DNA of 64,000 bases, from assembly GCA_964596525.1 (NCBI GenBank), contig CAZQUL010000001.1:601956-665955 (forward strand), given 5' to 3'. The notes below the pieces were generated by a model, which saw only the letters and a list, made by a program, of their open reading frames with translations, was not told the origin of the DNA and ran no database searches. The position numbers were made by a program, and so were the translations under genes. This DNA comes from an uncultured Gammaproteobacteria bacterium (GTDB taxonomy: Bacteria > Patescibacteriota > Patescibacteriia > Magasanikbacterales > GWA2-37-8). This document shows, piece after piece, positions 27,521-42,537 of the stretch; positions within the stretch are counted from its first letter, which is position 1, and the number at the start of each line of letters is the position of its first letter.

Positions 27521-28510
27521 TTAGGCAAAGGTTATTTTTTCCTTTCCTAAGAAAAGAGCTTCTTTAATAGCCTTTCCTACCGCCTCAGCAACGGGCGGAG
27601 GGAAAGCATTTCCTATCTGCCGGTAGGCAGCCGTCTTTTTTCCGTAAAATTTCCAATTTGAAGGGAATCCCTGTATAACAGCCGCCATTTCAATCGTAAG
27701 CCGGGGTTTTCCATTAAAATCTGCTGCTGGTACTGAGTCTGCTATGCCTCCGCCATCGACTCCCAATGCAGCCCAAGCGGCCTTTGCTCGAGTTGGGCCT
27801 AGGTCAGCACCTCCGTGTTTCTTTGATCCTCCCACAAGCGTCGGCGCCACTTTTGAGGCCCGCAGCTTCCACTCTTCCGCGCCTTTCCATCCCTGGCTAG
27901 ACATTAAAGCGTAAAGGGCTTCGCCGACAGTTAGTAGTTGATTCTCATTTCCTGTCGGCCATTTGAAATATTCGGCATAAGGTTGCTGTAAGGCAACCAT
28001 TAAAGTTCTTGGGCGTAATTGAGGAACTCCAAAATGAGCCGCATGTAGCAGTTTCCACTCTACCTTATAACCAATTTCTTCCAGCTGTCGTGAAATTTCT
28101 TCTCTATAATCTCTAAATTTAGGATCTAACAACCCTCTTACGTTCTCAATCATTACTGCTTTTGGCCTAGTCTTTTTTATAAGTTTCAGCGCAGCAGGAA
28201 ATAGGTCTCTCTCATCTAAATGCCCCAATTGTTTTCCAGCTTTTGAAAAAGGAGGACAGGGCACTCCGCCCGCAACCAGATCGACCTTTCCTTTGTAAGA
28301 TTCGCCGTCAAAATTATTAAGGTCTTCTTGGATTACATTCCACTGCGGACGATTTAATTTCAGTGTCGAACAAAATTGAGGTTCGATTTCTACAAGAGCG
28401 ATATGATCAAAACCCGCACGTTCAAGGCCTATGGCTTGGCCCCCGGCTCCGGCGCAAACTTCTATGGAAGTTAATTTTTCTTCTCTATGTTTCATAACAT
28501 CTTGTATCAC
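27521..28510 (-). CDS. DNA cytosine-5 methyltransferase
   Basis: 329 aa with motif I (VCAGAGG), the PC motif (GGVPCPPFSKAG), ENV (MIENVRGL) and motif X (QIGNAFPPPV). Confidence 0.85.
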   Translation of the reverse strand: MIQDVMKHREEKLTSIEVCAGAGGQAIGLERAGFDHIALVEIEPQFCSTLKLNRPQWNVIQEDLNNFDGESYKGKVDLVAGGVPCPPFSKAGKQLGHLDERDLFPAALKLIKKTRPKAVMIENVRGLLDPKFRDYREEISRQLEEIGYKVEWKLLHAAHFGVPQLRPRTLMVALQQPYAEYFKWPTGNENQLLTVGEALYALMSSQGWKGAEEWKLRASKVAPTLVGGSKKHGGADLGPTRAKAAWAALGVDGGGIADSVPAADFNGKPRLTIEMAAVIQGFPSNWKFYGKKTAAYRQIGNAFPPPVAEAVGKAIKEALFLGKEKITFA

Positions 28511-28632: not shown

Positions 28633-29964
28633 TTATGGCTCATTAATCCTTATTCGCCCTTCCTTTACTTGAATTTTTGATTTAAAATAGCTCATTAATT
28701 CTCTTTTCTCTTCATTTGTTCCATCCCTTAGAATATACTTAACATAAGCCTTTAGATCTATTTCTTCATAGTTAGCCGGGGATTGGGCTATACCCAGCAC
28801 TCGCTTTTGAAGCTTATTTATTCTTTTAATTTCTTCCTCAAATTTATGCTGGATTCCTATGGAATTTAACTCTATCTGGTCTATAAGCTTTTCTAGCTGA
28901 TTAACGAGTTCCTCTTCCCTTAAATACTGATTCTTACAATGCCTATCTTTCGACCTCCCGCACCCATAATAAATATACTTCGCCACCGTTCCATCTTTCA
29001 GCTGCTTATACTTCTCCTCGGCAGAAATACCTGAGCCGCATAAACCGCACGCCATAAGCTTGGTAAAGGCAAACTCGTGACTCTGCCGTACGATATTATC
29101 CCGTTTAAGCTGTGCTTGAGCCAGATCAAACAATTCTTTAGTAATAATCGGCTCATGCTTCCCTTGATACCAATTGCCGGAGTTTTTAGGGTATTCAAAA
29201 ACCCCATAATAAAGGGGGTTTTGCAAGACGCGGAATATGTTTCCTAAAGCCAAGTTGTGATTACCGATTGTCTTGAAATTAAGCTCGAATTTCAGCCAAT
29301 GATATATTTTCCTTCCCGACCATTTCTCATAGGCCATCTTTTCAAAAATTTTCTTCACAATCGGTGCTCGATCTGGATCGATGATAATCTGGCATCTCTT
29401 GTCTATCAGCTTCTGGTTTAAATAGCCGACAGGCGCCAAGCCGGGCCATAAACCCATTTCTACCCGGGCCCTTAAGCCTCGTTTCACATTAATACCTCGA
29501 TTATCGTTCTCCAGTTTTGCCTGACTTCCTAAAATCATGAGAAGGAATTTTTCATTAGGAGAGTTGGTAAAACGCTGTCCATACGTACGGATCTCAGTTA
29601 AAACGTTCTGGTCTATGAGATCGACTATCTTTCCTAGATCGCCGGCGTTTCTAGAAATACGATCTGGTGCCCAGGTAAGTATGCCATTGTATTTTTGATG
29701 CTTGAGGTCTTCAATTATTTCGTTAAAAATCGGACGTTCACCCGCCTCTTTTGCTGAATGGGATTCACGTTTTATTTCTACTACCGTTAACCCTTCTCGC
29801 TCTGCTAGTTGCAACATCTCTTTTACTTGGGAATCAACGGAAAGGACCTGCCGCTCTTCGGACTCAGTACTTTTCCGAGCGTAGAGGCAGTAGCGTACTT
29901 GAGGCACGGCCGTTTGTTTTGCTGCCATCTGTTGAGTTATAGGTGCCATATAAGCTGCATTCAT
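28633..29964 (-). CDS. Large serine recombinase (putative prophage integrase)
   Basis: 443 aa. N-terminal resolvase domain (YARKSTESEERQVLSVDSQ), a central recombinase domain, and a Cys-rich zinc ribbon (CGLCGS...CGRSKDRHC). The true start may be an internal Met. Confidence 0.8.
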   Translation of the reverse strand: MNAAYMAPITQQMAAKQTAVPQVRYCLYARKSTESEERQVLSVDSQVKEMLQLAEREGLTVVEIKRESHSAKEAGERPIFNEIIEDLKHQKYNGILTWAPDRISRNAGDLGKIVDLIDQNVLTEIRTYGQRFTNSPNEKFLLMILGSQAKLENDNRGINVKRGLRARVEMGLWPGLAPVGYLNQKLIDKRCQIIIDPDRAPIVKKIFEKMAYEKWSGRKIYHWLKFELNFKTIGNHNLALGNIFRVLQNPLYYGVFEYPKNSGNWYQGKHEPIITKELFDLAQAQLKRDNIVRQSHEFAFTKLMACGLCGSGISAEEKYKQLKDGTVAKYIYYGCGRSKDRHCKNQYLREEELVNQLEKLIDQIELNSIGIQHKFEEEIKRINKLQKRVLGIAQSPANYEEIDLKAYVKYILRDGTNEEKRELMSYFKSKIQVKEGRIRINEP

Positions 29965-30347
29965 AAGGCAGGCTAATATCTTGCCGGTAAAGCCCGGCTT
30001 TCAATGCACACTTATGACGCGATTGCTCTGATGCGTCTACTTTGGCTTTTGTTGGTAACTCAGACTTCACAAATATTCGCGTATGGTCTAAAATGGCCTT
30101 ACAATTTAAATGGCCTAAACCAGGTGAGGCATCTCCCTGGCATGGCCATAAGTCCTCAACAGTAGAAAGCTCCTAGTCAGAGCGCTGTTGAGGCTATGCA
30201 GGGAAACTTGCATAGGTCCCGTAAGGGATCGCTGACCGGGAGCTTTGTGTTTTTCCGGAAGCTGCCTATTTCCAAGTTTTTATGACAAAACAATCATTTA
30301 AGGAAGCTTAAAAATTTGCTTATTAATTTATTTTTTAGCAAGATTAT

Positions 30348-30623: not shown

Positions 30624-31004
30624 CTAAACACCCCTATCTTCATCAATTAAGTCTTCTAATGTTTTCTCTGGTACTTTAATAGGAATATTTGATTCTGTCC
30701 GGTGCGTTAAGATAACATTCTTTTTTTTCGGCTTATATCTTGGAGAGTTGTGGCTGAGCACGTACTTTATTGCTTCTAGCCTCTTTTCTTTCACGAGCAA
30801 CATTAACGAATGCTCAGCCGCATCGCTCATATTTTCCCTGCCCTGACGCTCGGCCAGTTTTGCTTGTTTATGGAAATCCTTATCTTCTTTACACCACCGA
30901 TAGTAAGTTGATTTATCAATCCCTGTTTTTATGCACGACAAAGACACGTTCCCGCTTTTTGCGATTTCGATAATCAGCTTGGACTTAGTCTCTGCATCGA
31001 TCAT
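30624..31004 (-). CDS. HTH-domain protein (terminase-small-subunit-like or transposase-like HTH)
   Basis: 126 aa. IIEIAKSGNVSLSCIKTGIDKSTYYRWCKEDKDF is an HTH. Lies adjacent to the ParB-MTase gene. Confidence 0.35.
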   Translation of the reverse strand: MIDAETKSKLIIEIAKSGNVSLSCIKTGIDKSTYYRWCKEDKDFHKQAKLAERQGRENMSDAAEHSLMLLVKEKRLEAIKYVLSHNSPRYKPKKKNVILTHRTESNIPIKVPEKTLEDLIDEDRGV

Positions 31005-31009
31005 ATTTG

Positions 31010-32323
31010 TTATTTAATCTTTACCGGTTTTTTACCCGTTTCCTTTTCCCAGCGTCGTAAAATGACTTGGGTATAAACCGGAGACTTTTCCATAATATAA
31101 CAACGGCGTTTCATCCGTACCGCGCTTATAAGCGTTGACCCACTTCCACCGAATGGTTCAACAATCAAATCATTGCGTTTTGTAAGCACCTTGATGTAGG
31201 GGATAAGGATTTCAACCGGCTTCGTACCGAAAATAATCCCCTGGCCGGAAGACTTCTCATCCGCCGCTTTATAGTCAATAAAATCCGTGGGGCAGATCTT
31301 CTTGCCTTTTTCGTATGATTCCCAGTGCGGCTTGCCGCTGATCGCGTAGAGCGCGGTTTCATACTCGTTTTCCAAGAATTCGCCTTCATCCTCGGTCCGA
31401 GGAGTAATGCCTTCCGTTCCCCCGACAATGGCGATATCATGCTTGTTGAAGAACTTGTTGCTGGCAGCAAAACCCTGCATCCGGTTCGGCACGTGCCAGA
31501 CGATCATGTTCCTCACCTTCCAGTGCTTTTCCATCTCGTTCCAAATAGTCCGGATATTCTTCCAGTTCTCGTATACGATGATGGAGAAATTTTCCTTGGC
31601 GACTTTCCGGATATTGCCCATCCATTTTTCGGTAAAGTCCGGCGGGAGCTCGTCAGTCTCTAAATATCTCCGGTTTTTCTTTGAGCCAAAGCCTCCGTCT
31701 TTGTCCTTCGCTCCCTTGAGATAATCGAGGATGTAGGGCGGATCAGTAAAACACATGTCGGCTTTTTGACCGTTCATAAGCTTAAGCATGTCCTCAGGAA
31801 TCGTAGAGTCTCCGCAAAGAATACGTGATCCGTCTAATTCGTAAATGTCACCTTTTTGCACGGTAACGGTCTGGATATCGATCTTCTCCAACTCTTTCTT
31901 TAAATCAAATTGTTCTTCGTGAATCTCCTGTGGAAAGATATTGTCGAGCTCTTCGCTATCGAAACCGACATCAGACAGGAACGATTCATCGAATTGCGCG
32001 AGCAAGTCGAGATCAAATTCACCGGTATTCTTGTTAAGGCGCAGATTCAGCTTTTTCTCCTTGGAAAGGTCAGGAATATTCACGTAAACGACTGGTATGG
32101 TGACTAGCCCAAGCTCTTTTGCGACTTCGGCTCTGAAATGGCCGCCGATAATGACGTTCAAGCGCTCAGGGGCGCTGTTGCAGATAATGGGGTCAACGAG
32201 GCCGAACTGCTGGATCGATTTTTTAAGCTGCTCGGATTGTTCTTTGGAATGCTTGCGCGGGTTGTATTCCGCGGCGCGCAGATTGTTGATAGGTACTTCG
32301 ATGATACTTATTTTGGGGTTCAT
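31010..32323 (-). CDS. ParB-N-domain / DNA methyltransferase fusion (N6/N4 class)
   Basis: 437 aa. N-terminal ParB-like nuclease domain (…YNPRKH…GGHFRAEVAKELG), then CFTDPPY (motif IV) and EPFGGSGSTLISA (motif I). Confidence 0.8.
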   Translation of the reverse strand: MNPKISIIEVPINNLRAAEYNPRKHSKEQSEQLKKSIQQFGLVDPIICNSAPERLNVIIGGHFRAEVAKELGLVTIPVVYVNIPDLSKEKKLNLRLNKNTGEFDLDLLAQFDESFLSDVGFDSEELDNIFPQEIHEEQFDLKKELEKIDIQTVTVQKGDIYELDGSRILCGDSTIPEDMLKLMNGQKADMCFTDPPYILDYLKGAKDKDGGFGSKKNRRYLETDELPPDFTEKWMGNIRKVAKENFSIIVYENWKNIRTIWNEMEKHWKVRNMIVWHVPNRMQGFAASNKFFNKHDIAIVGGTEGITPRTEDEGEFLENEYETALYAISGKPHWESYEKGKKICPTDFIDYKAADEKSSGQGIIFGTKPVEILIPYIKVLTKRNDLIVEPFGGSGSTLISAVRMKRRCYIMEKSPVYTQVILRRWEKETGKKPVKIK

Positions 32324-32605
32324 AGGTAAGGTTTAAGGTTAAACAAAAAAGCTAATTCCTATCATGGATTAGCGTTTTTTGAGTTCGACCTGGAAACCTC
32401 AAAGAATCATTTTTCCAATGATAGGGAAATAATGATTTTCGAGATTCCTGGTCTATTTTCTTCTCTGAAGAGTGGCTACGGCTAAATCCGTATTCTGTGA
32501 GCCAAATGAGAAGTTTTTGGTGATCAGGTCCGAAAGATCGAAAGAGGGGTGCTGCATCGGCTGAGCCTGGCAGCTGTAGATAGGATACACTGGGGATAAA
32601 TTGCG

Positions 32606-32640
32606 TGTCAATGCTGTCAATAAATCTATTGACGGAGAAG
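32606..32640 (+). promoter_or_regulatory. Putative operator palindrome plus -10 box upstream of the lexA-like gene
   Basis: gtcaat-aaatct-attgac inverted repeat (32606-32623), with an extra gtcaat half-site at 32597, then TATAAT at 32635-32640. The gene begins at 32696. Confidence 0.3.
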
Positions 32641-32695
32641 GCTGTATAATGATAAAATTCGATCATCACCACTTCCTTTCATTATTTTTCAGCTT

Positions 32696-33331
32696 ATGAA
32701 TGAGAATCAACAAAAGATTATTGACCTGGCCAAAAAGAAGAATATCTCCCGAATGAGCTTTCGCGAAATCGGGCGCGAGCTGGGGATTCCGAATCCTCAA
32801 ACGGTTATCTATCATCTGGATCAATTAAAGAAAAAAGGGGTTGTCTATTCTGATGCCGCTCATAAAACCCGCGTCGCAAAACCGAAGGCGTTTGCGATAG
32901 ATAAAATTTTCAACATCCCGATCGTCGGCTCCGCTAATTGCGGGCCTGCTTCGGAATTGGCGCAAGAAGATATACAGGGCTATTTGAAAATTTCACAAAA
33001 ATCGCTCGGCGTCTCCAAGCCCGATGGCTTGATCGCGATTAAGGCGATAGGAGATTCGCTCAATAAAGCGAATATTAACGGTGATGCCATTGAAAATGGC
33101 GATTATGTAGTGGTTGACGCAAAGAAGCAGCCGAAAAACGGTGACTATGTCCTGTCGGTTATCGATAATGCTGCAAATTTTAAGAAGTTTTTTAAAGATG
33201 AAAAAAGAGGGGAGATCAGGTTGATCTCAGAGTCTACGTTCGATTTTCCGCCAATTGTTTTGCACGAAGAAGACTTTGAGAGTTCTGGTTATTTAGTAAA
33301 TGGCGTGGCGGTAAGGGTTGTAAAGACTTAG
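32696..33331 (+). CDS. lexA: LexA-like repressor (wHTH + S24 autopeptidase)
   Basis: 211 aa. N-terminal wHTH (SFREIGRELGIPNPQTVIYHLDQLKKKG). The Ala-Gly cleavage context VGSANCGPASE, the Ser motif IGDSL and a downstream Lys are all present. Confidence 0.7.
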   Translation: MNENQQKIIDLAKKKNISRMSFREIGRELGIPNPQTVIYHLDQLKKKGVVYSDAAHKTRVAKPKAFAIDKIFNIPIVGSANCGPASELAQEDIQGYLKISQKSLGVSKPDGLIAIKAIGDSLNKANINGDAIENGDYVVVDAKKQPKNGDYVLSVIDNAANFKKFFKDEKRGEIRLISESTFDFPPIVLHEEDFESSGYLVNGVAVRVVKT

Positions 33332-33339
33332 GAAGTTTT

Positions 33340-34710
33340 ATGAGGTATGTATTTCCAAAACCCGCGTCGGAAGATGATTTTGAAGAAATGGTCTGCGATA
33401 TTTTTTCTCGAATTTTTCAGAATCCCAATTTGCAAAGATTTGGTCGGCGGGGGCAAGACCAAAAAGGTCTAGATATTTTAGGGGGTTTTGCGGGTCAGGA
33501 TTTTAGCGATGGAAAATTGGCCGCTATTCAGTGTAAAAATCATCCTGCTGGCATTAAATCCTCTAAGCTTAGACGAGAGCTGGAAAAAGATTTAAAGAAG
33601 TTTGATAAATCCGGTCTTCAAATTAAAAAATTTTATTTTGTAACAAGTGCCGAGAGTGACAAAGATTTAATAGAGTTTGTTTTAAAGATAAATAAGGATC
33701 GCAAGAAAAAGAGGAAAAGTTTAGTAACTATCCGTTTTTGGAATTTTATTCAACAAGAAATATTTAAATATCAAGATCTGGTTTATAAGTATTTCACAAG
33801 GCTGCTTCCCTCAGAAAAAGGCCTTGATACCTACATTCCTGATTTAAAAATGAAAAATAGAGAGACTCTTGTCGTAAAATACAATGAACTTATCGATAAA
33901 GAAGCCGTGTTGAAAATTCGTAAATCATTAGAAAGAATTATTGAAATTAATCTTAAAAATCTAAAACAGTCTAAAGAATATAACTTATATATAGGCGTTT
34001 CTTCAAAAGAAAATAGTATCTCTGATGGAGTAGTTGATCTGAATATAGATTTTAGCGACCTTTTTAAAACTGAAGAGAATCTGGAAGAAAACTTTCGGAA
34101 TATGGCTTCTTCCCTAAAAGGTCTTTTAAAAATCCTTGATAATAAAATTTTTTCTAAACAGGTAGTTCTATATCTAGAGACTGAGATAAGCCTCGCTTTT
34201 TTACTTGGATTATTTTTTAGGAAATATAAGTTTAACGTTAAGATAGTTTTTAAAGACCAGGTATGGACCACTTCTCAAAATGATCTTCAGTATGTAGACC
34301 CGCAACTTGTTGATAAAAAGCCGATTTTAAAATTTCCTGAAAATGATCAGGGTGGAATAATAGTAGACGTACGTAACGGTGCTGGCTTAGATATTGAGCC
34401 TGAGGTTCAGCAGTATCTAAATTCAATCCCAAATTCTCCCTCAGTCCTCCTGTCTTATAGAGTAATAGGTGAAAGAATCCAAAATAGTGCGCATGCGCTA
34501 TCTTTTGCAAAAGGAATAGCGGATAAAATTCTTCAGCTCAGAATGTGGAATATTAATCATATCCATCTTTTTTTCGCAGTCCCAAAACCGGTCGCTTTTC
34601 TTATTGCTTATTCCCTTAATACTTTAAATAGTAGTTTGCACCTGTATTTTAGAAGCGCAGATCGTACAACTTATTTAAAATCATATACTATCACTAACAA
34701 TACTTTTTAA
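33340..34710 (+). CDS. CBASS Cap4-like effector candidate: N-terminal Mrr-type PD-(D/E)xK nuclease plus a large C-terminal domain (possible SAVED-like sensor)
   Basis: 456 aa. FEEMVCDIFSRIF...GRRGQDQKGLDILGG...AIQCKNH matches the Mrr_cat restriction-endonuclease fold (D...QxK). About 330 C-terminal residues have no recognisable motif. SD-like aggaag precedes the ATG, 8 nt after the lexA stop. Confidence 0.5.
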   Translation: MRYVFPKPASEDDFEEMVCDIFSRIFQNPNLQRFGRRGQDQKGLDILGGFAGQDFSDGKLAAIQCKNHPAGIKSSKLRRELEKDLKKFDKSGLQIKKFYFVTSAESDKDLIEFVLKINKDRKKKRKSLVTIRFWNFIQQEIFKYQDLVYKYFTRLLPSEKGLDTYIPDLKMKNRETLVVKYNELIDKEAVLKIRKSLERIIEINLKNLKQSKEYNLYIGVSSKENSISDGVVDLNIDFSDLFKTEENLEENFRNMASSLKGLLKILDNKIFSKQVVLYLETEISLAFLLGLFFRKYKFNVKIVFKDQVWTTSQNDLQYVDPQLVDKKPILKFPENDQGGIIVDVRNGAGLDIEPEVQQYLNSIPNSPSVLLSYRVIGERIQNSAHALSFAKGIADKILQLRMWNINHIHLFFAVPKPVAFLIAYSLNTLNSSLHLYFRSADRTTYLKSYTITNNTF

Positions 34711-34713
34711 TAT

Positions 34714-35724
34714 ATGGCCTCTCTTAACTCTTCTTTTGAAGAATTTCTCAGTAAAATAGAACCAAATAGCAAAATCCAACAATATGCGCAAAAAGCCCAT
34801 ATTTCGCTTACAGATCATCTCAAAAACGATGCTGAATTTGGGGAATTTGTTGAAAACTCTTTCCTTTACGGTTCTTATAAGCGGCACACTGCAGTTGGCG
34901 ATATTGAGGATATCGATATTTGTCTAATAACAAATTTTAACTCCAACGATCCTTCATTGAAACCAAGCGAAGTTTTAAGAAAGCTTAAAGCATCGATAAG
35001 TAATTTTTATAAATTAGAAAATAATACTGAAATTCAAAGAAAGTCCGTTAAAGTAAAAGATGCTCTCCCCGATAATCCTTCAGTCGAGATTTCGCTTGAT
35101 GTTCTACCTGCAATCGCACCGTATGGAGAAGACGGTGTTTTATTGGTGCCGGATAAAGAATTGGCAGCCTGGGTGAAAAGTGACCCGAAAGCTCATCTAG
35201 CTTATGCCACAAATCTAAATTCGCCAGAAAATAGTAATGGTCGTTACATTCCATTAGTTAAGTTGATGAAATGGTGGTGGAAATATCAAAAGGAAGAGAG
35301 GTGGCCTGGCGAGAAACATAAACCTAAAGGTTTTTGGGTAGAATGTTTAACGGGATTATTTTTTAATCCAAACAAGGAAAATTGGGCGGAAAATTTTATA
35401 GCAGTTCTTGAAGGTGTTGAAAATAGCTATGGTAGTGCATCTGACGTGCCCGCTTTACCCGACCCAGGTTTGCCGGGTGAGAGCATAAAAACAAAAATGA
35501 CTAATGAGGATTTTCAAGATTTTATTGAAGTCGTAAAGAATTCTTTAGATTTAGCAAGAAATGCATATAATGAGAGCGATAATTTTCTAAGCTCAAAATT
35601 ATGGCAGTCAATTTTTGGACATAAATTTCCTCTCTCCGAAGGAAATGGTGGCTCAGAAAATAAGTCGATAAATCCGAGCGTTGGAATTAAACCTCATCGG
35701 CCGTGGCATGCGTATGTTGAATGA
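34714..35724 (+). CDS. cGAS/DncV-like nucleotidyltransferase (CD-NTase, SMODS type)
   Basis: 336 aa. GSYKRHTAVGDIEDIDICL is the pol-beta NTase GS...[DE]h[DE]h motif as found in CdnC/CdnD-type enzymes. Starts 3 nt after the effector gene. Confidence 0.75.
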   Translation: MASLNSSFEEFLSKIEPNSKIQQYAQKAHISLTDHLKNDAEFGEFVENSFLYGSYKRHTAVGDIEDIDICLITNFNSNDPSLKPSEVLRKLKASISNFYKLENNTEIQRKSVKVKDALPDNPSVEISLDVLPAIAPYGEDGVLLVPDKELAAWVKSDPKAHLAYATNLNSPENSNGRYIPLVKLMKWWWKYQKEERWPGEKHKPKGFWVECLTGLFFNPNKENWAENFIAVLEGVENSYGSASDVPALPDPGLPGESIKTKMTNEDFQDFIEVVKNSLDLARNAYNESDNFLSSKLWQSIFGHKFPLSEGNGGSENKSINPSVGIKPHRPWHAYVE

Positions 35725-36403
35725 AAGCGATAAAAAGTGGTTAAAAGAAAAAAATCCAGGATTAGTTATCGAGCCTGATAAAATAACTGGGACCATAAAA
35801 TTTATAGGCGCTTATAGTCCTTCGCTTGATAAATTTTGGCAAATTGAAAAAGGCGTTGTCCCTAGTAAAGACTCCTATATATTAGGGGGTTCATTTTTGG
35901 TGCGTATTCAGGAGAAGGTCGGCCACAGATTTCCCATTCTCTTTTTAGAGGACAGCAAAATTAAAAAAATTCCAGACCGTCATCTTAACTCAGATGGCTC
36001 TGCATGTCTGTATGTTCGTTTAGAAGAGAGTTTTGTTCTGCCTAATTCTGATTTTAAAATTTTTTTTCAACAATTAATCATTCCTTTTTTATACGCACAG
36101 TTATTTTTTGATAGGAAAGGTTGTTGGCCCTGGGATGAATATTCACATGGTTCGGCGGGGATCTTAGAGTCTTTTTTATATTCAAGTGGAAAAATAAAGG
36201 CAGAAGATTGTTTAATAGAGCTAAAAAAATCCAATGATTGGGAAGATGTTAAAAGGATTTTGTCTCAGAAGAAGATTAAAGGCCACTTGACGAGATGTTT
36301 TTGTCCGAAAAAGGATTATTTAAGACGCTGCCATTCCGATGCTTGGAAGGGGATTATAAAGTTGCATGAAGATATGATTGCTCAAAGAATTTTGATTCCT
36401 TAA
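35714..36403 (+). CDS. E2 (UBC)-like protein candidate
   Basis: ATG at 35714 overlaps the CD-NTase stop. About 229 aa. HLNSDGSACLYV resembles the E2 HPN...C active-site loop, and a beta-meander precedes it. Confidence 0.4.
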   Translation: MLNESDKKWLKEKNPGLVIEPDKITGTIKFIGAYSPSLDKFWQIEKGVVPSKDSYILGGSFLVRIQEKVGHRFPILFLEDSKIKKIPDRHLNSDGSACLYVRLEESFVLPNSDFKIFFQQLIIPFLYAQLFFDRKGCWPWDEYSHGSAGILESFLYSSGKIKAEDCLIELKKSNDWEDVKRILSQKKIKGHLTRCFCPKKDYLRRCHSDAWKGIIKLHEDMIAQRILIP

Positions 36404-36431
36404 TTCTTTTTTAAGCAAGAAAAACGTAAGT

Positions 36432-37142
36432 ATGGAATTAAATCTCAAGCCAAAACAGTATTATATCGACCTTTATGATCATGGGACGGTCGATATTTGT
36501 CGGAGGTTCGACAAGTCATCAGCCGATTATGATCCTATGGAACTTAAGAAAAATAAGATATCTAAACGGCAAACGCTCTTAATAGATAAAGGAGCTCGGC
36601 AATGGCTCGTTCATGTGCAATCCGGCGAGCGGCATTTGAATAAGGAAAAAACTATTCGCGAATGGATGGATGCTGATCAGAAGAGAGACGAGCTGTACGA
36701 ATCTGCCCAGCCTCCCGAAGACATCCCTTGCCTCACGTGCCGCAACCGTCTCAAGGTGGCATGCAAGGAACTTTGGACCGAGCACGAAAAAGAAGATCGA
36801 GTTCTTTTCATGTACGACTGCCCCAATAAGTGCCTTCCGCATCGTGCGTTCTTTTCCGATGGTGAAGAGTGGAGGACGAAGCAACCTGCCTGTCTTCGTT
36901 GTGGATCTCTACTCATCCAAGAATCAGAAGATGACGGGCTTAAGCTCATCACCACATCTTCTTGCAAGAAGTGCAGCCATGCCGAAAAGGAGGAGTATGT
37001 CTGGAGTGCAAAGAAAGGGGAAGATATCGACGAGAACTTTGCTGCCGATCGCGACCGCTATTGTATGACCGACGAGGAAGGCAAGAAGTATCAGGATGAA
37101 AAATGGAACATAGAACGCATCGGAAAGTTCATGAAAGAATAG
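36432..37142 (+). CDS. Double zinc-ribbon protein (CLTC/CPNKC/CLRC/CKKC)
   Basis: 236 aa with four CxxC pairs in the C-terminal half. 28 nt after the E2-like gene. Confidence 0.3.
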   Translation: MELNLKPKQYYIDLYDHGTVDICRRFDKSSADYDPMELKKNKISKRQTLLIDKGARQWLVHVQSGERHLNKEKTIREWMDADQKRDELYESAQPPEDIPCLTCRNRLKVACKELWTEHEKEDRVLFMYDCPNKCLPHRAFFSDGEEWRTKQPACLRCGSLLIQESEDDGLKLITTSSCKKCSHAEKEEYVWSAKKGEDIDENFAADRDRYCMTDEEGKKYQDEKWNIERIGKFMKE

Positions 37143-37157
37143 AAAGAAAAGGAAAAG

Positions 37158-37457
37158 ATGCAGGAAGAAAAGCTCAAGCTAAATCCGAAAGGTTTTCATC
37201 TCGATGGTGCCGGATACGCCTGCTGCATTTGCGGCGATCATACGCCCGAAGGAGATAATTGGCATGAAAAGTACGGAATCAAATGCCTTGTCTGCCAGAA
37301 AGCGATCGACGAGGGCGAGATACCAGCGGCTTTGGCGAAGTACAAAGATAGCTGGTACACCAAGTATGATTTTGAGCACTATTTCAACGTGAAGGGTCCC
37401 GCTCTTAGAATGTGGATCAAGAAAGGTGTTGTCAGTCCGCGCATCATCAGTCATTAG
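37158..37457 (+). CDS. Small zinc-finger protein
   Basis: 99 aa with CCICGDH...CLVCQ. Confidence 0.3.
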   Translation: MQEEKLKLNPKGFHLDGAGYACCICGDHTPEGDNWHEKYGIKCLVCQKAIDEGEIPAALAKYKDSWYTKYDFEHYFNVKGPALRMWIKKGVVSPRIISH

Positions 37458-37487
37458 GGCAAAGGCGAGCATGCGCAGGTATTTCTC

Positions 37488-37754
37488 ATGAGAGATAACA
37501 AGAACTTTCTTCCACCGAAGAATCTGTTAAAGAGCCATAGCGTCAACGAGAGAAAGGAAGGTGGAAAGGTCTGGACGCATATGGAACCCTGGTATCGTTT
37601 TGTTGATCCGTATAAGTACCTAAAGAAGTGCAGGATTATGAACTATTTGCGTGTTGTTCCACCCGAAGAAGTGAAGGCTAGGGAGGAGGAAGAAAAGAAG
37701 AAGTATGAAGAGAAAAAAATCCGTCGAGAAGCTCAAAGAAAAATGCGGAAGTAG
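37488..37754 (+). CDS. Small Lys/Glu-rich protein
   Basis: 88 aa. Charged C-terminal tail EEVKAREEEEKKKYEEKKIRREAQRKMRK. Confidence 0.25.
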   Translation: MRDNKNFLPPKNLLKSHSVNERKEGGKVWTHMEPWYRFVDPYKYLKKCRIMNYLRVVPPEEVKAREEEEKKKYEEKKIRREAQRKMRK

Positions 37755-37774
37755 TGTCGCATTTGTCGTATTTT
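37755..37774 (+). repeat. 20-mer tgtcgcatttgtcgtatttt, copy 1 of a duplicated promoter-like motif
   Basis: 19 of 20 nt identical to 45444-45463. Intergenic, immediately after the 37488-37754 stop. Confidence 0.5.
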
Positions 37775-37819
37775 GTTTTTTTCAATTGTTTTAACTATTC
37801 TATTTCTTACTAAATTTTT

Positions 37820-38119
37820 ATGACTCTTTATATCTATGATACAAGCGGCCGAACAGTAGGTTTCCGGAGAGGAAAGTATATTCACGATATGCATGGTAAA
37901 GCCATAGGGCAGATTAACAGGGAGACGCACGTCCACAAGCTCTCAGGAGAATATGTAGGAGAACTCGATCATGACATGGTGGTTGATAAGCATCTGGGCA
38001 ACCTTGGGAATATTGGAAATCCCGGGAATCCCGGTAATCCAGGTTCTCCGGGCAACCCAGGTAGCCGGGGAAGTGTTAATTATGGTTATCCTGATGTTTT
38101 TTCAAAACTTGAAGAATAA
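37820..38119 (+). CDS. Small protein with C-terminal collagen-like G-X-Y triplet run
   Basis: 99 aa. GNLGNIGNPGNPGNPGSPGNPGSRGS is 9 consecutive GXY triplets, encoded by a 9-nt periodic DNA repeat at 37990-38070. Confidence 0.35.
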   Translation: MTLYIYDTSGRTVGFRRGKYIHDMHGKAIGQINRETHVHKLSGEYVGELDHDMVVDKHLGNLGNIGNPGNPGNPGSPGNPGSRGSVNYGYPDVFSKLEE

Positions 38120-38154
38120 TACCCAAATCTTGACGCGTGTTAATCGATTATCAC

Positions 38155-38236
38155 CCTCCGGCCCGAGTACCTCAGTTTAGCCGCTCGACAGAAAGCCCAG
38201 AAAGCCTTACATTGTTGAAGCTACACTCTCCCGGCC
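38155..38236 (+). repeat. Conserved non-coding element, copy 1 (cccgagtRcctca...gctcgacagaa...ccttacaYtg)
   Basis: About 80 nt, alignable at roughly 70% identity to 45475-45551. Lies 30 nt upstream of the MccF-like gene. Confidence 0.5.
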
Positions 38237-38267
38237 AAATTCATCTCCTTCGCTACGAACTTACTCT

Positions 38268-40194: not shown

Positions 40195-41426
40195 GTTCCA
40201 AGCAAGAATACTTCGCGGCCGTTAATTCCGAGCCGCTTATTACTATTAAAGGTCGGACTACCGGAGAGGAATTCGCGCTACGCGAATATACCTACGGGGC
40301 CCTTGTTCCTGACAATCAGCACCCTCTTTCCTCGGTCAGTGTCTCCAACAGTTCTCTGAGTATCGATCTGTGGATCGGTTGCGCCTGGCAATGCCGATAT
40401 TGCCATGTTCAGGGAACCTACCAAGATCTGGCGGAACAGGGTGCTATGCCGAGACGCCCGAGACGGCGCAATTCGTTTTCCGTCGATCAAATTCTGGATG
40501 AGCTCGTTAAGCATCCGTTTTTCATCGCCGACGAGACGATTATCAGTATCGGAACAGCCAGTACCGAACCGTTCGCGCCGGGGCCGGTCACCGAAAGCAC
40601 CTTCGAGATCATGAACGCCTTTCTCCGGCGGGAACTCCGGAATCCTTTCTGGATCGTTACCAAAGGCGGCGTTCCCAAGGGGAGAAAGCTCGACTTCGCC
40701 CGGATTTCGAACGTAACCCGCGGGCTTATGCTATCGCTATGCTGGGCTGACAATCCTGATACGATCGAGCCGGCTCATAACAACCGCTTCCTTAATGCTG
40801 CAGAAGCCAAAGAAGCGGGAGCTACTGTCGCTTGGTATATGCGGCCGATTGTTCCGGAATGGAGCGGTAATCGTGATCGCATTGAGATGATGATGCTCTG
40901 GGTCAAAAAATACTACAGCGGCGTCATCGACATGATCGTTCCCGGCGGCTTGCGCTGGACCGAAGGGATTGAAAATGGCTTAGTGGAGATTCATAACCTT
41001 CCTATGCCCAGTATCCCTCGGGATGACAACGTGAAATCCCTGCCACAAGAATTGGTGGATGCGATTTTCTCGCTGAGCGCTGAGCATTTTCCGGGTATTC
41101 CGGTCTATCTCAAATCGTCATGTGCCCTTACGCGAATGCTGAAAATTCCAAGCATCACCTCGGTGCAGGTTTTCGCTCGGCAGGAATGTGAGTCGTCTCA
41201 CTGTCCTCTAGCCCAGCGTCAAATCTGTGCTCAAGGAGCAGCGTACACCATGACAACTGAGCGGGCACAGAGCGTTCTTGATGCGCTGGGAATTCCGGCA
41301 TGTGTCGTAAGTTGGGACGCTCACCGCGGACTTGTTACCCATCCTGAGATGAGTAATTTCAGCTATGCGGTCAGGCAGACGGTATTCAAACATCTGGCAC
41401 GAGGAGGCCTTCATGAAGTTCTCTGA
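40170..41426 (+). CDS. Radical SAM enzyme (SplB-like CxxxCxxC)
   Basis: 418 aa. GCAWQCRYCHV is a CX3CX2C cluster motif. The start may be at the internal Met at 40191. Overlaps the AKR stop. Confidence 0.7.
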   Translation: MSERISHMSSKQEYFAAVNSEPLITIKGRTTGEEFALREYTYGALVPDNQHPLSSVSVSNSSLSIDLWIGCAWQCRYCHVQGTYQDLAEQGAMPRRPRRRNSFSVDQILDELVKHPFFIADETIISIGTASTEPFAPGPVTESTFEIMNAFLRRELRNPFWIVTKGGVPKGRKLDFARISNVTRGLMLSLCWADNPDTIEPAHNNRFLNAAEAKEAGATVAWYMRPIVPEWSGNRDRIEMMMLWVKKYYSGVIDMIVPGGLRWTEGIENGLVEIHNLPMPSIPRDDNVKSLPQELVDAIFSLSAEHFPGIPVYLKSSCALTRMLKIPSITSVQVFARQECESSHCPLAQRQICAQGAAYTMTTERAQSVLDALGIPACVVSWDAHRGLVTHPEMSNFSYAVRQTVFKHLARGGLHEVL

Positions 41427-42537
41427 AGACGCCCAGCGTCACTTCCAACGTTTCGGTTTCGAGTGGCAGGAGGGCGGCCCGATCGTGAGCGCTAATTCCA
41501 AGCTCTTGTTCAATATCTCCGGAGGGGTCGTATTCGAGGAAGCGATCTGCTACGGAGCCGCTCCTACAAAACGGCGCGTGGTATCGGTTCAGACCTGCCT
41601 CAGAACGGACGGCTGGGAAAAGATTGGGCTGTCCGGCCGACACCATCTGGCTTTCGACATGCTCGGTCACTTCTCTCTGTATGAGAAGGGTGGACGTGAA
41701 ACGAAAGAACTGATGATTGAGAGCGCCTGGCGCTATCTGACAGATTTTTTAGAGATTAGTTCTAACAGTCTGTCAGCGACCGTTCATCCCGGTGACCACG
41801 TATCGTCAAAGATATGGGAGAGCTTGGGAGTTAAGACGGTGCTCAACGATGGGAACATCTCGCACACTCCCGCCAGAAACCGTTGCGGCATGCGCACGGA
41901 AATCGTCTGGAAAAATCCGAGTACGCAGCGACCCATCGAGCTGTGGAACTTAGTCTTCACGGAGTTCGAGGGTACCACGCTCTTTGAGTGCCCGCTTTCC
42001 ACAATCGCCGCTGATTCCGGGGCAAGTATCGATCGCATCGTTACGGCAGTCGAATGCTGTTCTAGCGACTACGATAACTCGAACTGGAAGAGTGTCGTTA
42101 GTTTCCTCTCCGAGCTGTCCCGGATTAACGACCGAGCTCTCGCGTGCCGATTGGCTGATCTTGGTAAAGCGGCAACACTGCTGATGGGAGAAGGGCTTCG
42201 ACCGGGAAACCGAGCGGCAGAATATGTCCTTCGGAAAATCATCCGTGAAGCCCTTGTCCTGTGCCAGCAAGCATCTATCCCAGCTGGGGACTTCGCAACA
42301 GTGATGGCAGAACGTTGGGATTCCTCTCAAACAGCGCAAGCCGCGTTTGTCGAAGAGGCAGTCAGATTCGAAAAAGCCCTGGATCGGGGAAGAAAAGAAC
42401 TGGCAAAGCTCTCTGTCCGCCGGAATGGCCCTCTCACCGAACAAGACGTTGAATACCTTGCATCCACGTTCGGTTTTCCTAAAACTCTCATCAAGTTCGG
42501 AGAATCCAAACGGGAGACGGGGGAACACAATGAATAA
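41413..42537 (+). CDS. Stand-alone alanyl-tRNA synthetase catalytic-domain paralogue
   Basis: ATG at 41413 follows a ggagg SD and overlaps the rSAM stop. RHHLAFDMLGHFSL matches AlaRS RHHTFFEMLGNFSF, CGMRTEIVW matches GPCGPCTEIF, ELWNLVFTEF matches EIWNIVFMQF, and IAADSGASIDRI matches VDTGMGLERI (Ala-binding Asp conserved). No editing or C-Ala domains. Confidence 0.7.
   Translation: MKFSEDAQRHFQRFGFEWQEGGPIVSANSKLLFNISGGVVFEEAICYGAAPTKRRVVSVQTCLRTDGWEKIGLSGRHHLAFDMLGHFSLYEKGGRETKELMIESAWRYLTDFLEISSNSLSATVHPGDHVSSKIWESLGVKTVLNDGNISHTPARNRCGMRTEIVWKNPSTQRPIELWNLVFTEFEGTTLFECPLSTIAADSGASIDRIVTAVECCSSDYDNSNWKSVVSFLSELSRINDRALACRLADLGKAATLLMGEGLRPGNRAAEYVLRKIIREALVLCQQASIPAGDFATVMAERWDSSQTAQAAFVEEAVRFEKALDRGRKELAKLSVRRNGPLTEQDVEYLASTFGFPKTLIKFGESKRETGEHNE

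What the first reader, a model, noticed from the sequence alone, without database searches (positions are those of the whole stretch)
35714..37457. Non-canonical CBASS accessory module: E2-like protein without E1 or JAB, followed by two zinc-ribbon proteins
Type II CBASS normally carries a Cap2 E1-E2 fusion plus a Cap3 JAB. Here only a short E2-like ORF (HLNSDGSACLYV loop) follows the CD-NTase. It is then followed by a 236-aa protein with four CxxC pairs and a 99-aa CCxC...CxxC protein, neither of which is a described Cap protein. These could be new conjugation or regulatory partners for the CD-NTase, or unrelated cargo.
Basis: inference. Interest (0 to 1): 0.7.

Follow-up and report, generated by a model that had tools for sequence, protein, structure and literature searches.

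The report
E2-type CBASS beside a broken prophage gene
The short E2-like gene is a genuine but already described kind of CBASS regulator, and the "two zinc-ribbon proteins" are pieces of one prophage backbone gene, broken by two stop codons, that sits next to many different defence systems in related genomes.

Summary

2. **The zinc-ribbon ORFs.** The 236-aa ORF, the 99-aa ORF and a further 88-aa ORF are in one frame. Together they are colinear with single 390-444-aa proteins, so they form one gene (36432-37754) cut by two in-frame TAG codons. A more than 90% identical intact ortholog has Trp and Tyr at those positions.

3. **What that gene is.** It belongs almost entirely to Patescibacteria mobile elements. 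It lies to the right of a divergent ParB-methyltransferase gene, with 0.3-8.5 kb of variable cargo in between. The cargo includes this E2-CBASS, other CBASS types, Gabija, helicases or nothing. It is therefore a hotspot anchor gene, not a Cap protein. I predict it is a zinc-ribbon plus excisionase-like winged-helix DNA-binding protein.

One oddity remains: the cyclase tail ends YVE where the studied system has a Gly that it needs.

The parts
28633..29964 (-). Large serine recombinase (443 aa), the likely integrase of the element
   Evidence: Resolvase/Recombinase/Zn_ribbon_recom Pfam hits on the identical gene in L001. Homologs at 44-72% identity lie upstream of the zinc-ribbon gene in about 25 related loci.
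30624..31004 (-). Small-terminase-like HTH protein (126 aa), a backbone gene
   Evidence: PHROG terminase small subunit families at 1e-5 to 1e-2. It is syntenic with ParB-MTase in many loci and is followed by a large terminase in L006.
31010..32323 (-). ParB-N-terminal / N6-N4 DNA methyltransferase fusion (437 aa), the LEFT anchor of the cargo hotspot
   Evidence: phrog_498 at 1e-82; ParB_N + N6_N4_Mtase. 85% nucleotide identity to L087 up to window position 32543, where homology stops.
32582..32658 (.). Divergent promoter-like pair between ParB-MTase and the + strand operon
   Evidence: Consensus scan: TTGACG-18-TAAAAT (+, with TG) at 32629-32658 and TTGACA-18-TATCCT (-) at 32611-32582. These are pattern matches only.
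32696..33331 (+). LexA/CI-like S24 peptidase repressor (211 aa), first gene of the + strand operon, 8 nt before the effector gene
   Evidence: Peptidase_S24 7e-15 and LexA_DNA_bind 6e-6. A homolog holds the same first position in L010, L033, L049, L061, L072, L076 and L086.
33340..34710 (+). CBASS effector: N-terminal Mrr/LmuA-like nuclease domain plus C-terminal SAVED sensor (456 aa), Cap4-like
   Evidence: SAVED 3.6e-10. PADLOC SAVED_PDDEXK 5e-13, endonuclease Effector 1e-10, and LmuA N-terminal domain 9e-10.
34714..35724 (+). CD-NTase (336 aa), clade-D-like, with C-terminal tail ...KPHRPWHAYVE
   Evidence: SMODS 2e-21; PADLOC Cyclase 2e-67. Nearest solved chains are 9sa4/9sa5 (6e-46), then CdnD02 7to3_C (2e-28). 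Tail comparison.
35714..36403 (+). Stand-alone CBASS E2 (229 aa): UBC fold with His90/Cys98 (HLNSDGSAC) and a C-terminal SEC-C-like CxC...CH zinc motif
36432..37754 (+). One 440-codon gene ('ZN') disrupted by two in-frame TAGs: a pseudogene of a conserved backbone protein and the RIGHT anchor of the cargo hotspot
   Evidence: Single-frame translation. Colinear with 389-444-aa homologs. The intact >90%-identical ortholog P0095 is 444 aa. 94% nucleotide identity to L087 over 36441-38121.
36432..37142 (+).
   Evidence: Model of homolog P0004: helices 8-32 and 45-91, beta domain 100-186 carrying the four Cys pairs. Pfam DZR weak hits in 14 of 15 members. The N-module is also found fused to a different C-terminal domain in about 360-aa homologs.
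37140..37142 (+). In-frame TAG no. 1, at a position that is Trp in most of the aligned homologs, including the closest intact ortholog (TGG to TAG)
   Evidence: FMKE*KEKEK against FMEEWKEKEK in P0095 and in the family alignment.
37158..37457 (+).
   Evidence: Aligns to residues 243-341 of the family. Model: ribbon at 272-281, then a beta-alpha-alpha-beta-beta winged helix at 304-348. HTH_17 weak hits in 9 of 15 members and MerR in 4 of 15.
37455..37457 (+). In-frame TAG no. 2, at a family-invariant Tyr, cutting the wing of the winged helix
   Evidence: ISH*GKGEH against ISHYGKGEH. Y342 is invariant in A1.
37488..37754 (+).
   Evidence: Same frame as fragments 1 and 2. Aligns to family columns 353-440.
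37741..37774 (+). Terminator-like hairpin plus T-run over the ZN stop codon; nothing similar lies between E2 and ZN
   Evidence: Consensus scan. The E2-ZN spacer is 28 nt.
37820..38119 (+). 99-aa beta-flower protein with a GNPGNPG repeat, the last gene shared with the related element L087
   Evidence: Pfam Bflower 4.5e-11. Homology with L087 ends at 38121.

Best explanation
The interval straddles the end of a cargo cassette and the start of a backbone gene in a prophage or integrative element of a Patescibacteria-type genome.

The cassette (32696-36403) is a prophage-borne E2-CBASS. It encodes a LexA/CI-like S24 repressor, a nuclease-SAVED (Cap4-like) effector, a clade-D-like CD-NTase and a stand-alone E2. 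By analogy with the studied Serratia system, the E2 uses its catalytic Cys (C98, in HLNSDGSAC) to capture and process the C-terminal tail of the cyclase. This controls how much cyclic oligonucleotide is made. The nucleotide then activates the SAVED-nuclease effector to destroy DNA in infected cells. These steps are inferred, not shown here.

The two 'zinc-ribbon proteins' are not part of this system. Together with a third ORF they are one 440-codon gene (36432-37754) inactivated by two nonsense mutations, Trp237 to TAG and Tyr342 to TAG.

The intact protein is a conserved backbone gene of a family of Patescibacteria mobile elements. The space between the divergent ParB-methyltransferase gene and this gene is a hotspot into which different defence systems are slotted. 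The whole unit is probably read from the promoter in front of the repressor gene.

I predict that the intact protein binds DNA, through zinc ribbons plus an excisionase/MerR-type winged helix. I think it acts in the lysogeny module as a regulator or a recombination directionality factor. This functional assignment is the weakest step. The confidence of 0.8 applies to the structural and genomic reading. My confidence in the proposed biochemical role of the intact protein is about 0.3.
For: E2 identity:
- PADLOC E2 models match at 6e-28 over nearly the full length.
- The family has 788 representatives of about 230 aa with invariant His and Cys.
- E2-only CBASS and its mechanism are published.

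One gene, not two:
- The three ORFs share a frame and align end to end with 389-444-aa proteins.
- An ortholog in the same 90% cluster (P0095, 444 aa) is intact, with W and Y at the two TAG positions.

Backbone gene, not a Cap protein:
- There are 75 loci in species-representative genomes, nearly all Patescibacteria.
- Synteny is conserved as serine recombinase / TerS-like / ParB-MTase (all minus strand), then a variable gap of 318-8560 bp, then the ZN gene.
- Some loci have no cargo at all (L015, L034 and others).
- Cargo elsewhere includes: Gabija (L002, L025, L073); CBASS with Cap15 (L006); CBASS with Cap2 (L033); an SNF2 helicase (L013); AAA_13 + DUF2779 (L014); DUF2779 + an SF1 helicase (L017); HsdR (L018); and others.
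- The closely related element L087 keeps the flanks at 85% and 94% nucleotide identity, but carries a single HATPase_c_3 gene where the window has LexA + CBASS.
- The CBASS cassette occurs without ZN in L089.

Pseudogene rather than recoding:
- TAG ends 11 of the window's 51 large ORFs, including the LexA-like gene of the same operon.
- The window has no tRNA genes.
- Other lineages carry independent in-frame stops of all three kinds at other positions: TAA at Q47 in L006, TAG at W277 in L008/L022, TGA at position 281 in L010, and TGA at W229 in L091. L037 has a frameshift.

DNA-binding prediction:
- The model (pLDDT 86.5) has a beta-alpha-alpha-beta-beta winged helix after a zinc ribbon.
- Weak HTH_17 hits occur in 9 of 15 members, MerR in 4 of 15 and DZR in 14 of 15.
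- The C-terminal module alone, or with other N-termini, occupies the same position next to ParB-MTase or the recombinase in other loci.
- The gene sits directly beside a serine recombinase (L029, L068) or a tyrosine integrase (L003).
Against: - The cyclase tail ends ...HAYVE, with Val where S. marcescens CdnG has Gly406. In that system G406V abolished linkage to E2. The conjugation chemistry may therefore differ here, or the processing site may lie elsewhere.
- The cyclase is shorter (336 aa) and not clade G, unlike most E2-CBASS cyclases.
- For the pseudogene reading: both window stops are TAG, the rest of the ORF is intact, and only 3 of 86 family-invariant positions are changed, no more than in intact homologs. 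Inactivation is therefore recent, and leaky read-through cannot be excluded.
- ZN is 28 nt from E2 with no terminator-like site between them. An E2-like gene also directly abuts ZN in L021. A functional link is therefore not formally excluded.
- No ZN homolog was found in IMG/VR or INPHARED phages. The 'phage backbone' label therefore rests on synteny with phage-like genes in MAGs.
Confidence: 0.8

Rival explanations
1. One reading: the 236-aa and 99-aa zinc-ribbon ORFs are functional new accessory (Cap-like) proteins that replace E1/JAB and act with the E2 on the CD-NTase.
For: The ORFs are tightly packed on the same strand directly after E2, with no terminator-like site between. The syntenic relative L086 has the same order. 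An E2-like gene also abuts ZN in L021. The 236-aa ORF corresponds to a self-contained N-module that exists in other domain contexts.
Against: The ORFs are fragments of one gene with premature stops. The second stop cuts inside a predicted folded domain at an invariant Tyr. The family sits next to many unrelated defence systems, or next to none. The nearest relative of the element has intact ZN and no CBASS. The cassette occurs without ZN. E2-only CBASS is known to work without further partners.
Confidence: 0.04
2. The two TAG codons are read through (by a suppressor tRNA, programmed read-through or phage stop-codon recoding), so a full-length ZN protein is still made.
For: Both internal stops are TAG. 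The remainder of the 440 codons is intact and in frame. Conserved-site violations are no more frequent than in intact homologs.
Against: TAG is a normal terminator here, ending 11 of 51 large ORFs including the upstream LexA-like gene and ZN itself. No tRNA of any kind is in the 64-kb window. The two positions are different residues (W and Y) in the intact ortholog. Disrupted homologs in other lineages use TAA, TGA and TAG at unrelated positions, and one has a frameshift. That pattern fits decay rather than a programmed signal.
Confidence: 0.05
3. ZN is not just a neighbour but a generic regulator or sensor that serves whatever defence cassette is inserted upstream. For example, it could couple cassette expression or activity to the state of the prophage.
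For: ZN always has the same orientation as the cargo and directly follows its last gene. Spacers are short, and in L021 there is a 4-nt overlap. There is no terminator-like site before ZN and one right after it. It is predicted to be a DNA-binding protein.
Against: ZN is present where there is no cargo (L015, L034, L066, L071). It is repeatedly knocked out while the neighbouring defence genes remain intact ORFs (window, L006, L008, L010). Conserved genes that flank variable defence cargo in other prophages (for example P2/P4 hotspots; my own knowledge) have no role in defence.
Confidence: 0.1
4. The stops are sequencing or assembly errors and the gene is intact in the organism.
For: The genome derives from metagenomic or short-read data. 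Single-base errors occur.
Against: There are two separate substitutions. An independent Logan assembly is identical over 20.7 kb. Comparable nonsense alleles are seen in unrelated samples, and one allele recurs in L008, L009 and L022 from different assemblies.
Confidence: 0.03

Closest known systems
E2-CBASS (type II CBASS with a stand-alone E2; Serratia marcescens CdnG-E2, PDB 8hsb; Yan et al. preprint 10.1101/2022.05.25.493364; Xiao et al. 2026, PMC12948482)
   Same: The operon has an effector, a CD-NTase and a stand-alone E2 of about 230 aa directly after the cyclase, with no E1 and no JAB. The E2 has a UBC fold with a conserved His...Cys loop. The best structural match of the model is the S. 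marcescens E2 itself.
   Different: The cyclase is clade-D-like and 336 aa, not the longer clade G type that makes up about 74% of E2-CBASS. Its penultimate residue is Val rather than the conserved Gly. The E2 carries a C-terminal SEC-C-like zinc motif that is conserved across its family. The system sits on a Patescibacteria mobile element behind a LexA-like repressor.
Enterobacter cloacae CdnD02-Cap4-Cap2-Cap3 (type II CBASS with E1-E2 fusion and JAB; PDB 7to3)
   Same: The cyclase is second-closest in sequence to CdnD02 among solved structures (2e-28). The effector is a nuclease-SAVED protein like Cap4. A 62%-identical cyclase in L090 sits in exactly such a Cap2 + JAB operon.
   Different: Here Cap2 and Cap3 are replaced by the stand-alone E2, and the cyclase tail does not end in Gly or Ala.
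Defence hotspots of temperate phages and satellites (for example the P2 and P4 hotspots of E. coli; recalled from my own knowledge, Rousset et al. 2022)
   Same: Two conserved backbone genes (ParB-MTase and ZN) bracket a site with interchangeable defence cargo. Closely related elements keep the flanks (85-94% nucleotide identity) but differ completely in cargo.
   Different: The host range is Patescibacteria/CPR, and the anchor genes and the integrase (a large serine recombinase) are unrelated to those of P2/P4. As far as the library searches showed, this hotspot has not been described.
Excisionase / MerR-type winged helix proteins (Pfam HTH_17; for example the Xis-type directionality factor of the phiRv1 serine integrase, recalled from my own knowledge)
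   Same: The predicted beta-alpha-alpha-beta-beta winged helix in the C-module gives recurring weak HTH_17 and MerR hits. The gene lies in a lysogeny module beside recombinases.
   Different: ZN is 6-fold larger, with three zinc ribbons, a coiled-coil hairpin and a C-terminal beta region. No hit reaches Pfam thresholds, and no structural neighbour was found for the whole chain. No function has been tested.

Membership tests
E2-CBASS (type II CBASS, E2-only) | A CD-NTase gene and a cyclic-nucleotide-sensing effector gene in one operon | tested here: met
   SMODS 2e-21 and PADLOC Cyclase 2e-67 for 34714-35724. SAVED 3.6e-10 plus a nuclease N-terminal domain for 33340-34710. The genes are 3 nt apart.
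E2-CBASS (type II CBASS, E2-only) | A stand-alone protein with the UBC (E2) fold and a conserved catalytic Cys, encoded next to the cyclase | tested here: met
E2-CBASS (type II CBASS, E2-only) | No E1 (ThiF) domain and no JAB peptidase in the operon | tested here: met
   None of the ORFs between 32696 and 38119 hits ThiF, Cap2_linker or Prok-JAB. Relatives L090 and L033 do carry them, which shows the models would have detected them.
E2-CBASS (type II CBASS, E2-only) | A conserved Gly at the penultimate position of the cyclase C-terminus, which is linked to the E2 Cys/Lys (G406 in SmCdnG) | tested here: not met
   The window tail is ...RPWHAYVE and the L086 tail is ...RPYAYVE. Related ~330-aa cyclases share a 'KPW' motif 2-5 residues from the end, without Gly. 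G406V abolished linkage in S. marcescens. Whether another residue is used here is unknown.
E2-CBASS (type II CBASS, E2-only) | An extended cyclase C-terminal helix plus three-stranded sheet that recruits E2; clade G cyclase (typical of the class, but not universal) | tested here: inconclusive
   The cyclase is 336 aa. Its nearest solved relatives are 9sa4/9sa5 and clade D enzymes, not CdnG.
E2-CBASS (type II CBASS, E2-only) | Covalent E2-cyclase linkage and anti-phage activity | not testable with these tools
   This needs biochemistry and a phage challenge.
CBASS-associated (Cap) protein, for the zinc-ribbon ORFs | Recurrent, specific co-occurrence with CD-NTase operons | tested here: not met
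   The family has 75 loci in species-representative genomes. In the 35 loci where both the ParB-MTase gene and ZN could be placed, CD-NTase or CBASS cargo was identified only in the window/L086 system, L006 and L033. The others carry Gabija, helicases, other cargo or nothing. Further loci carry RM or other helicase cargo upstream of ZN. The cassette occurs without ZN in L089.
CBASS-associated (Cap) protein, for the zinc-ribbon ORFs | An intact coding sequence | tested here: not met
   There are two in-frame TAGs relative to the intact 444-aa ortholog.
Prophage/MGE defence hotspot | Conserved flanking genes with interchangeable cargo between closely related elements, the cargo being enriched in defence genes | tested here: met
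   Against L087 the flanks are 85% and 94% identical and there is no homology across 32544-36440. The gap ranges from 318 to 8560 bp across 35 loci. PADLOC and Pfam cargo hits include GajA/GajB, Cap2, Cap15, DrmD-like, HsdR, AAA_13 and others.
Excisionase/MerR-type winged helix (Pfam HTH_17), for the ZN C-module | A match to the family profile above threshold | tested here: inconclusive
   HTH_17 hits 9 of 15 members (best E 0.003) and MerR hits 4 of 15, all below gathering scores. The window sequence itself gives no hit.
Excisionase/MerR-type winged helix (Pfam HTH_17), for the ZN C-module | Beta-alpha-alpha-beta-beta winged-helix topology | tested here: met
   In the predicted model of P0004: E304-306, H307-314, H318-326, E333-337, E342-348, with block-mean pLDDT of about 72-92 across this stretch. 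This is a prediction only.
Stop-codon-recoded phage (TAG reassigned) | TAG depleted as a terminator, many genes with in-frame TAG, and a suppressor tRNA | tested here: not met
   TAG ends 11 of 51 large ORFs (5 of 28 within the prophage part). The window has no tRNA. Only this gene shows in-frame TAGs among those examined.

The most novel reading that the evidence does not exclude
The roughly 440-aa zinc-ribbon/winged-helix protein family could be a previously undescribed lysogeny-module factor of temperate elements of Patescibacteria, acting as a regulator or as a recombination directionality factor for their serine or tyrosine integrases. It would mark a so-far undescribed defence-cargo hotspot in these ultra-small bacteria. 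Its repeated knock-out by nonsense mutations would 'ground' the element, leaving the defence cassette as a domesticated host asset. At least five independent lineages in this sample carry such knock-outs. In addition, the E2-CBASS carried here may use a non-glycine cyclase C-terminus (YVE, with a conserved PW motif), which would imply a variant of the E2-cyclase linkage chemistry.
Probability: 0.25. Interest if true: 0.55.

Novelty: new member of a known kind. Interest (0 to 1): 0.3.

Why it matters
For the question asked, it matters mainly as a correction. There is no new CBASS accessory module here, and E2-only CBASS is already a characterised class.

Three smaller points have some value:

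1. **Defence on CPR mobile elements.** Patescibacteria are often described as poor in defence systems. Here a family of their integrative elements carries a well-defined hotspot with CBASS, Gabija, restriction and helicase systems. The hotspot is bracketed by two easily recognised anchor genes, which could be used to mine CPR genomes for new defence genes.

2. **A test case for E2-cyclase linkage.** This E2-CBASS pairs a clade-D-like cyclase lacking the conserved C-terminal Gly with a stand-alone E2. That makes it a useful case for asking how general the Gly-Cys/Lys linkage mechanism is.

3. **An annotation lesson.** Adjacent small 'zinc-finger ORFs' in one frame should be checked against longer homologs before being treated as separate genes.

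Tried and rejected
- **Family and collection searches for ZN.** Pfam, PADLOC and PHROG scans of the 236-aa and 99-aa ORFs gave nothing usable. ZN was not found in IMG/VR or in INPHARED phages.
- **TAG recoding or read-through.** I considered this because both internal stops are TAG and several truncated homologs end just before a Trp. I rejected it after reading the codons. The stops are a mix of TAG, TGA and TAA at different positions, which is what single transitions in TGG and CAA codons would produce. TAG is also a normal terminator in the window.
- **A functional E2-ZN link.** I considered this because an E2-like gene abuts ZN in L021 as well. With many other kinds of cargo in the same position, this is explained by the hotspot.
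- **Relaxed selection on the window copy.** I tested this by counting changes at family-invariant positions. The count was 3 of 86, the same as in intact homologs, so the test is uninformative beyond showing that inactivation is recent.
- **The ~100-nt conserved motif downstream of ZN/Bflower.** I tested it for RNA structure and Rfam membership. It has no consensus structure and no family match.

Full report
**Observation.**
- The CD-NTase (34714-35724; SMODS 2e-21, PADLOC Cyclase 2e-67) is followed, with an 11-nt overlap, by a 229-aa ORF (35714-36403) containing HLNSDGSACLYV.
- A 236-aa ORF (36432-37142) has four Cys pairs: CLTC, CPNKC, CLRC and CKKC.
- A 99-aa ORF (37158-37457) has CCIC...CLVC.
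- Upstream in the same tight + strand array are a LexA/S24-like repressor (32696-33331) and a nuclease-SAVED protein (33340-34710).
- None of the ORFs between 32696 and 38119 matches an E1 or JAB model.

**The E2.** The 229-aa protein matches the PADLOC models built for stand-alone CBASS E2 proteins (6e-28, near full length). It matches Pfam E2-ntca only below threshold.
- A full HMMER scan of 1.84 billion cluster representatives found 788 relatives, nearly all about 230 aa.
- In an alignment of 60 of them, His90, Cys98 (the HLNSDGSAC loop), Cys195 and Cys206 are invariant. Cys197 and His207 are at least 90% conserved. These last four residues form a C-terminal CxC...CH motif that resembles the SecA SEC-C zinc motif.
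- Sequence searches of the PDB did not reach any E2.
- The UBC fold is therefore confirmed, and the closest solved relative is exactly the E2 of an E2-only CBASS.

**Is an E2-only CBASS non-canonical?** No. [quoted passage not shown] E2-CBASS has 616 operons that encode only an E2. In the S. marcescens system the E2 processes the cyclase C-terminus. It links Gly406 to its Cys101 and then to Lys159, and it drives poly-cGASylation that activates the cyclase.

The window's system is a member of this class with some differences.
- The cyclase is 336 aa. Among solved structures it is closest to 9sa4/9sa5 and then to clade D enzymes such as CdnD02. Most E2-CBASS cyclases are longer clade G enzymes.
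- The effector is Cap4-like.
- A 62%-identical cyclase (L090) sits in a classical SAVED / CD-NTase / Cap2 / JAB operon. A 45%-identical one (L089) sits in a SAVED / CD-NTase / E2-like operon. The same cyclase-effector lineage is therefore served by either regulator type.
- The cyclase tail ends ...KPHRPWHAYVE, and ...RPYAYVE in the 90%-identical L086 copy. Val sits where SmCdnG has the conserved Gly, and G406V abolished linkage in that system. Related ~330-aa cyclases share a 'KPW' motif 2-5 residues from the end rather than a Gly. This is the one feature of the class that I tested and found not met. It does not change the classification of the E2, but the linkage chemistry may differ.

**The 'two zinc-ribbon proteins' are one broken gene.** A homolog search with the 236-aa ORF returned 91 proteins, most of them 350-413 aa long and covering 97-100% of the query.
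- The sequences of the 390-413-aa group continue past the end of the 236-aa ORF. They run through a stretch identical in pattern to the 99-aa ORF and on into the 88-aa ORF at 37488-37754.
- All three window ORFs are in the same frame. Translating 36432-37757 gives a continuous 440-codon sequence with only two interruptions.
- The first is TAG at 37140-37142, in FMKE*KEKEK where most homologs have W.
- The second is TAG at 37455-37457, in ISH*GKGEH where a Tyr is invariant in the family.
- The 90%-identity cluster that holds the 236-aa and 99-aa ORFs also holds an intact 444-aa protein (P0095), with W and Y at those two positions.
- An independent assembly of SRR11567528 is identical to the window over 20.7 kb, including both stops.

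**Pseudogene or recoding?** Both stops are TAG. The rest of the ORF is undamaged: only 3 of 86 family-invariant positions are changed, which is no more than in intact homologs. I therefore considered read-through, and the evidence is against it.
- TAG terminates 11 of the 51 large ORFs in the window, including the LexA-like gene of the same operon and ZN itself.
- There is no tRNA gene in the window.
- Disrupted copies in other lineages carry different stops at different places. These are TAA at Gln47 (L006/L007), TAG at Trp277 (L008/L009/L022), TGA at position 281 (L010), TGA at Trp229 (L091) and a frameshift (L037).
- All but the window's Tyr codon change are single C:G to T:A transitions in TGG or CAA codons, as expected for ordinary mutational decay.
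- The gene is therefore a recent pseudogene, and the family is knocked out unusually often.

**What the intact gene is.** The family is almost confined to Patescibacteria/CPR genomes. It has 75 loci among GTDB species representatives, none in IMG/VR and none in INPHARED phages.
- Searching the loci with the window's own neighbours shows a conserved architecture. The order is large serine recombinase (-), small-terminase-like gene (-), ParB-N6/N4 methyltransferase (-), a variable interval, then ZN (+).
- The interval ranges from 318 bp (no gene) to 8.5 kb.
- Its contents differ from locus to locus:
  - window and L086: LexA-like + E2-CBASS;
  - L002, L025 and L073: Gabija (GajA/GajB);
  - L006: CD-NTase + Cap15;
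  - L033: a Cap2-containing CBASS;
  - L013: an SNF2/DrmD-like helicase;
  - L014: AAA_13 + DUF2779;
  - L017: DUF2779 plus an SF1 helicase;
  - L018: HsdR;
  - L008/L022: a DUF4365 protein;
  - L087: a single HATPase_c_3 protein.
- L087 is decisive. It is the closest relative of the window's element. The methyltransferase side is 85% identical and ZN + beta-flower gene are 94% identical at the nucleotide level. Yet there is no homology at all across window 32544-36440.
- ZN is thus the right-hand anchor of a defence-cargo hotspot, and the CBASS is the cargo.
- The window's left 30 kb carries a large terminase, portal, major head, tail fibre and lysin genes, so the element is a prophage or prophage remnant.

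**What ZN probably does.** The model of a full-length homolog (pLDDT 86.5) shows five parts:
- a helical hairpin;
- a beta domain carrying the four Cys pairs (two zinc ribbons);
- a long helix;
- a third zinc ribbon followed by a beta-alpha-alpha-beta-beta winged helix;
- a final beta-hairpin region.

Whole-chain structure searches were uninformative. A lenient Pfam scan of 15 family members gave recurring sub-threshold hits to DZR (14 of 15), HTH_17 (9 of 15) and MerR (4 of 15).

The C-terminal module (NPKGFHL, zinc ribbon, winged helix) also occurs with only a short N-terminal extension (195-224 aa). It occurs as well with a different N-terminal region (335 aa), in the same position beside the methyltransferase or the recombinase. 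The N-module also occurs fused to an unrelated C-terminal domain. ZN sits directly beside a serine recombinase in L029 and L068, and beside a tyrosine integrase in L003.

My best inference is a DNA-binding protein of the lysogeny module, either a regulator of the divergent promoter region or a recombination directionality factor. This is an inference with modest confidence. In the window copy, the second stop falls inside the wing of the winged helix, so the DNA-binding module is destroyed.

**Operon structure.**
- A promoter-like pair lies between the methyltransferase and the LexA-like gene (32582-32658).
- No terminator-like site separates E2 from ZN, and the spacer is 28 nt.
- A hairpin plus T-run overlaps the ZN stop (37741-37774).
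- These are pattern matches only. They fit a lysogeny-expressed operon of repressor, defence cargo and ZN, similar in logic to cI-rexAB of lambda (my own knowledge).
- The LexA-like gene is the first + strand gene in eight loci with different cargo. It therefore belongs to the element rather than to the CBASS, though it could couple CBASS expression to DNA damage.

**Comparison and verdict.** The E2 is a new member of a known class (E2-CBASS). Its two atypical traits are a clade-D-like cyclase and a non-Gly tail. The zinc-ribbon ORFs are not Cap proteins.

What is not in the literature I could search is the ParB-MTase/ZN hotspot of Patescibacteria elements and the ZN family itself. That is a modestly interesting by-product rather than the finding as proposed.

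Overall interest is low to moderate.

Noticed in passing
window 30112-30230 (+): This is the only Rfam gathering-level hit in the 64-kb window: LOOT RNA (RF03000), 78.5 bits, full length. It lies between the serine recombinase gene and an 82-aa zinc-ribbon membrane ORF. Its role in a prophage lysogeny module is unknown.
   Followed up: no
window 38150-38240 and 45476-45569; also L087 11724-11817 and 13086-13162, L024 11349-11444, L012 1946-2071: A conserved ~100-nt motif (…CCGACCCGAGTGCCTCAAATT…GCTCGACAGAAGGC…AAACCCTTACACTGATTG…GGGTACTTAAC…) lies just downstream of ZN/beta-flower in several loci and recurs 7.3 kb further on in the window. RNAalifold finds no consensus structure and there is no Rfam match. 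It could be an attachment-site or regulatory DNA element that marks the end of the element.
   Followed up: partly
L021 632-1234 and 1222-1932: A TIR-like 200-aa protein and a 236-aa E2-like protein (29% identical to the window E2, with the same SEC-C-like C-terminus) lie directly upstream of an intact ZN, overlapping it by 4 nt. No CD-NTase is visible in the 1.2 kb before the contig start. This may be an E2-containing system without a cyclase.
   Followed up: no
window 35700-35724 (cyclase C-terminus) and homologs P0296-P0342: The short (~330 aa) relatives of this CD-NTase share a C-terminal 'KPW' motif 2-5 residues from the end (for example ...PKPWHNNE) instead of a terminal Gly or Ala. The 348-aa relatives end in ...KKPGGFG. 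This may define a distinct tail type for E2-only partners.
   Followed up: partly
ZN homologs: window 37140, L008 8841, L010 8841, L091 ~2413, L006 7992: ZN is knocked out by nonsense mutations in at least five independent lineages, four of them at Trp codons, while the remainder of each ORF stays intact. One further locus (L037) has a frameshift. In the same loci only one in-frame stop each was seen in the recombinase and methyltransferase homologs. The difference was not tested statistically.
   Followed up: partly
window 37820-38119 (+): A 99-aa protein with a 4-fold beta-flower domain (PF21784, 4.5e-11) and a collagen-like GNPGNPGNPGSPGNPG repeat is conserved with ZN in L087 (94% nucleotide identity). 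It is the last gene before homology ends.
   Followed up: no
window 32696-33331 (+) and the first cargo gene in L010, L033, L049, L061, L072, L076, L086: A LexA/CI-like S24 peptidase repressor is repeatedly the first gene of the + strand operon, ahead of different defence cargo. Here it is 8 nt upstream of the CBASS effector gene. This suggests DNA-damage-responsive control of prophage-borne defence. It would be analogous in logic to CapH/CapP, but using a different protein.
   Followed up: no
window 41365-42537 and 44086-45378 (+): Two separate ORFs (390 and 430 aa) both hit the class II alanyl-tRNA synthetase core family (tRNA-synt_2c) within 4 kb, in the higher-GC region to the right of the element.
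   Followed up: no
window 26194-28510: A Vsr-like very-short-patch endonuclease, an HNH endonuclease and a Dcm-type cytosine methyltransferase sit just left of the serine recombinase. They are conserved with L087 at 80% nucleotide identity. A further methyltransferase lies at 1325-2878 and another at 5333-6352, so the element carries at least four DNA methyltransferases.
   Followed up: no
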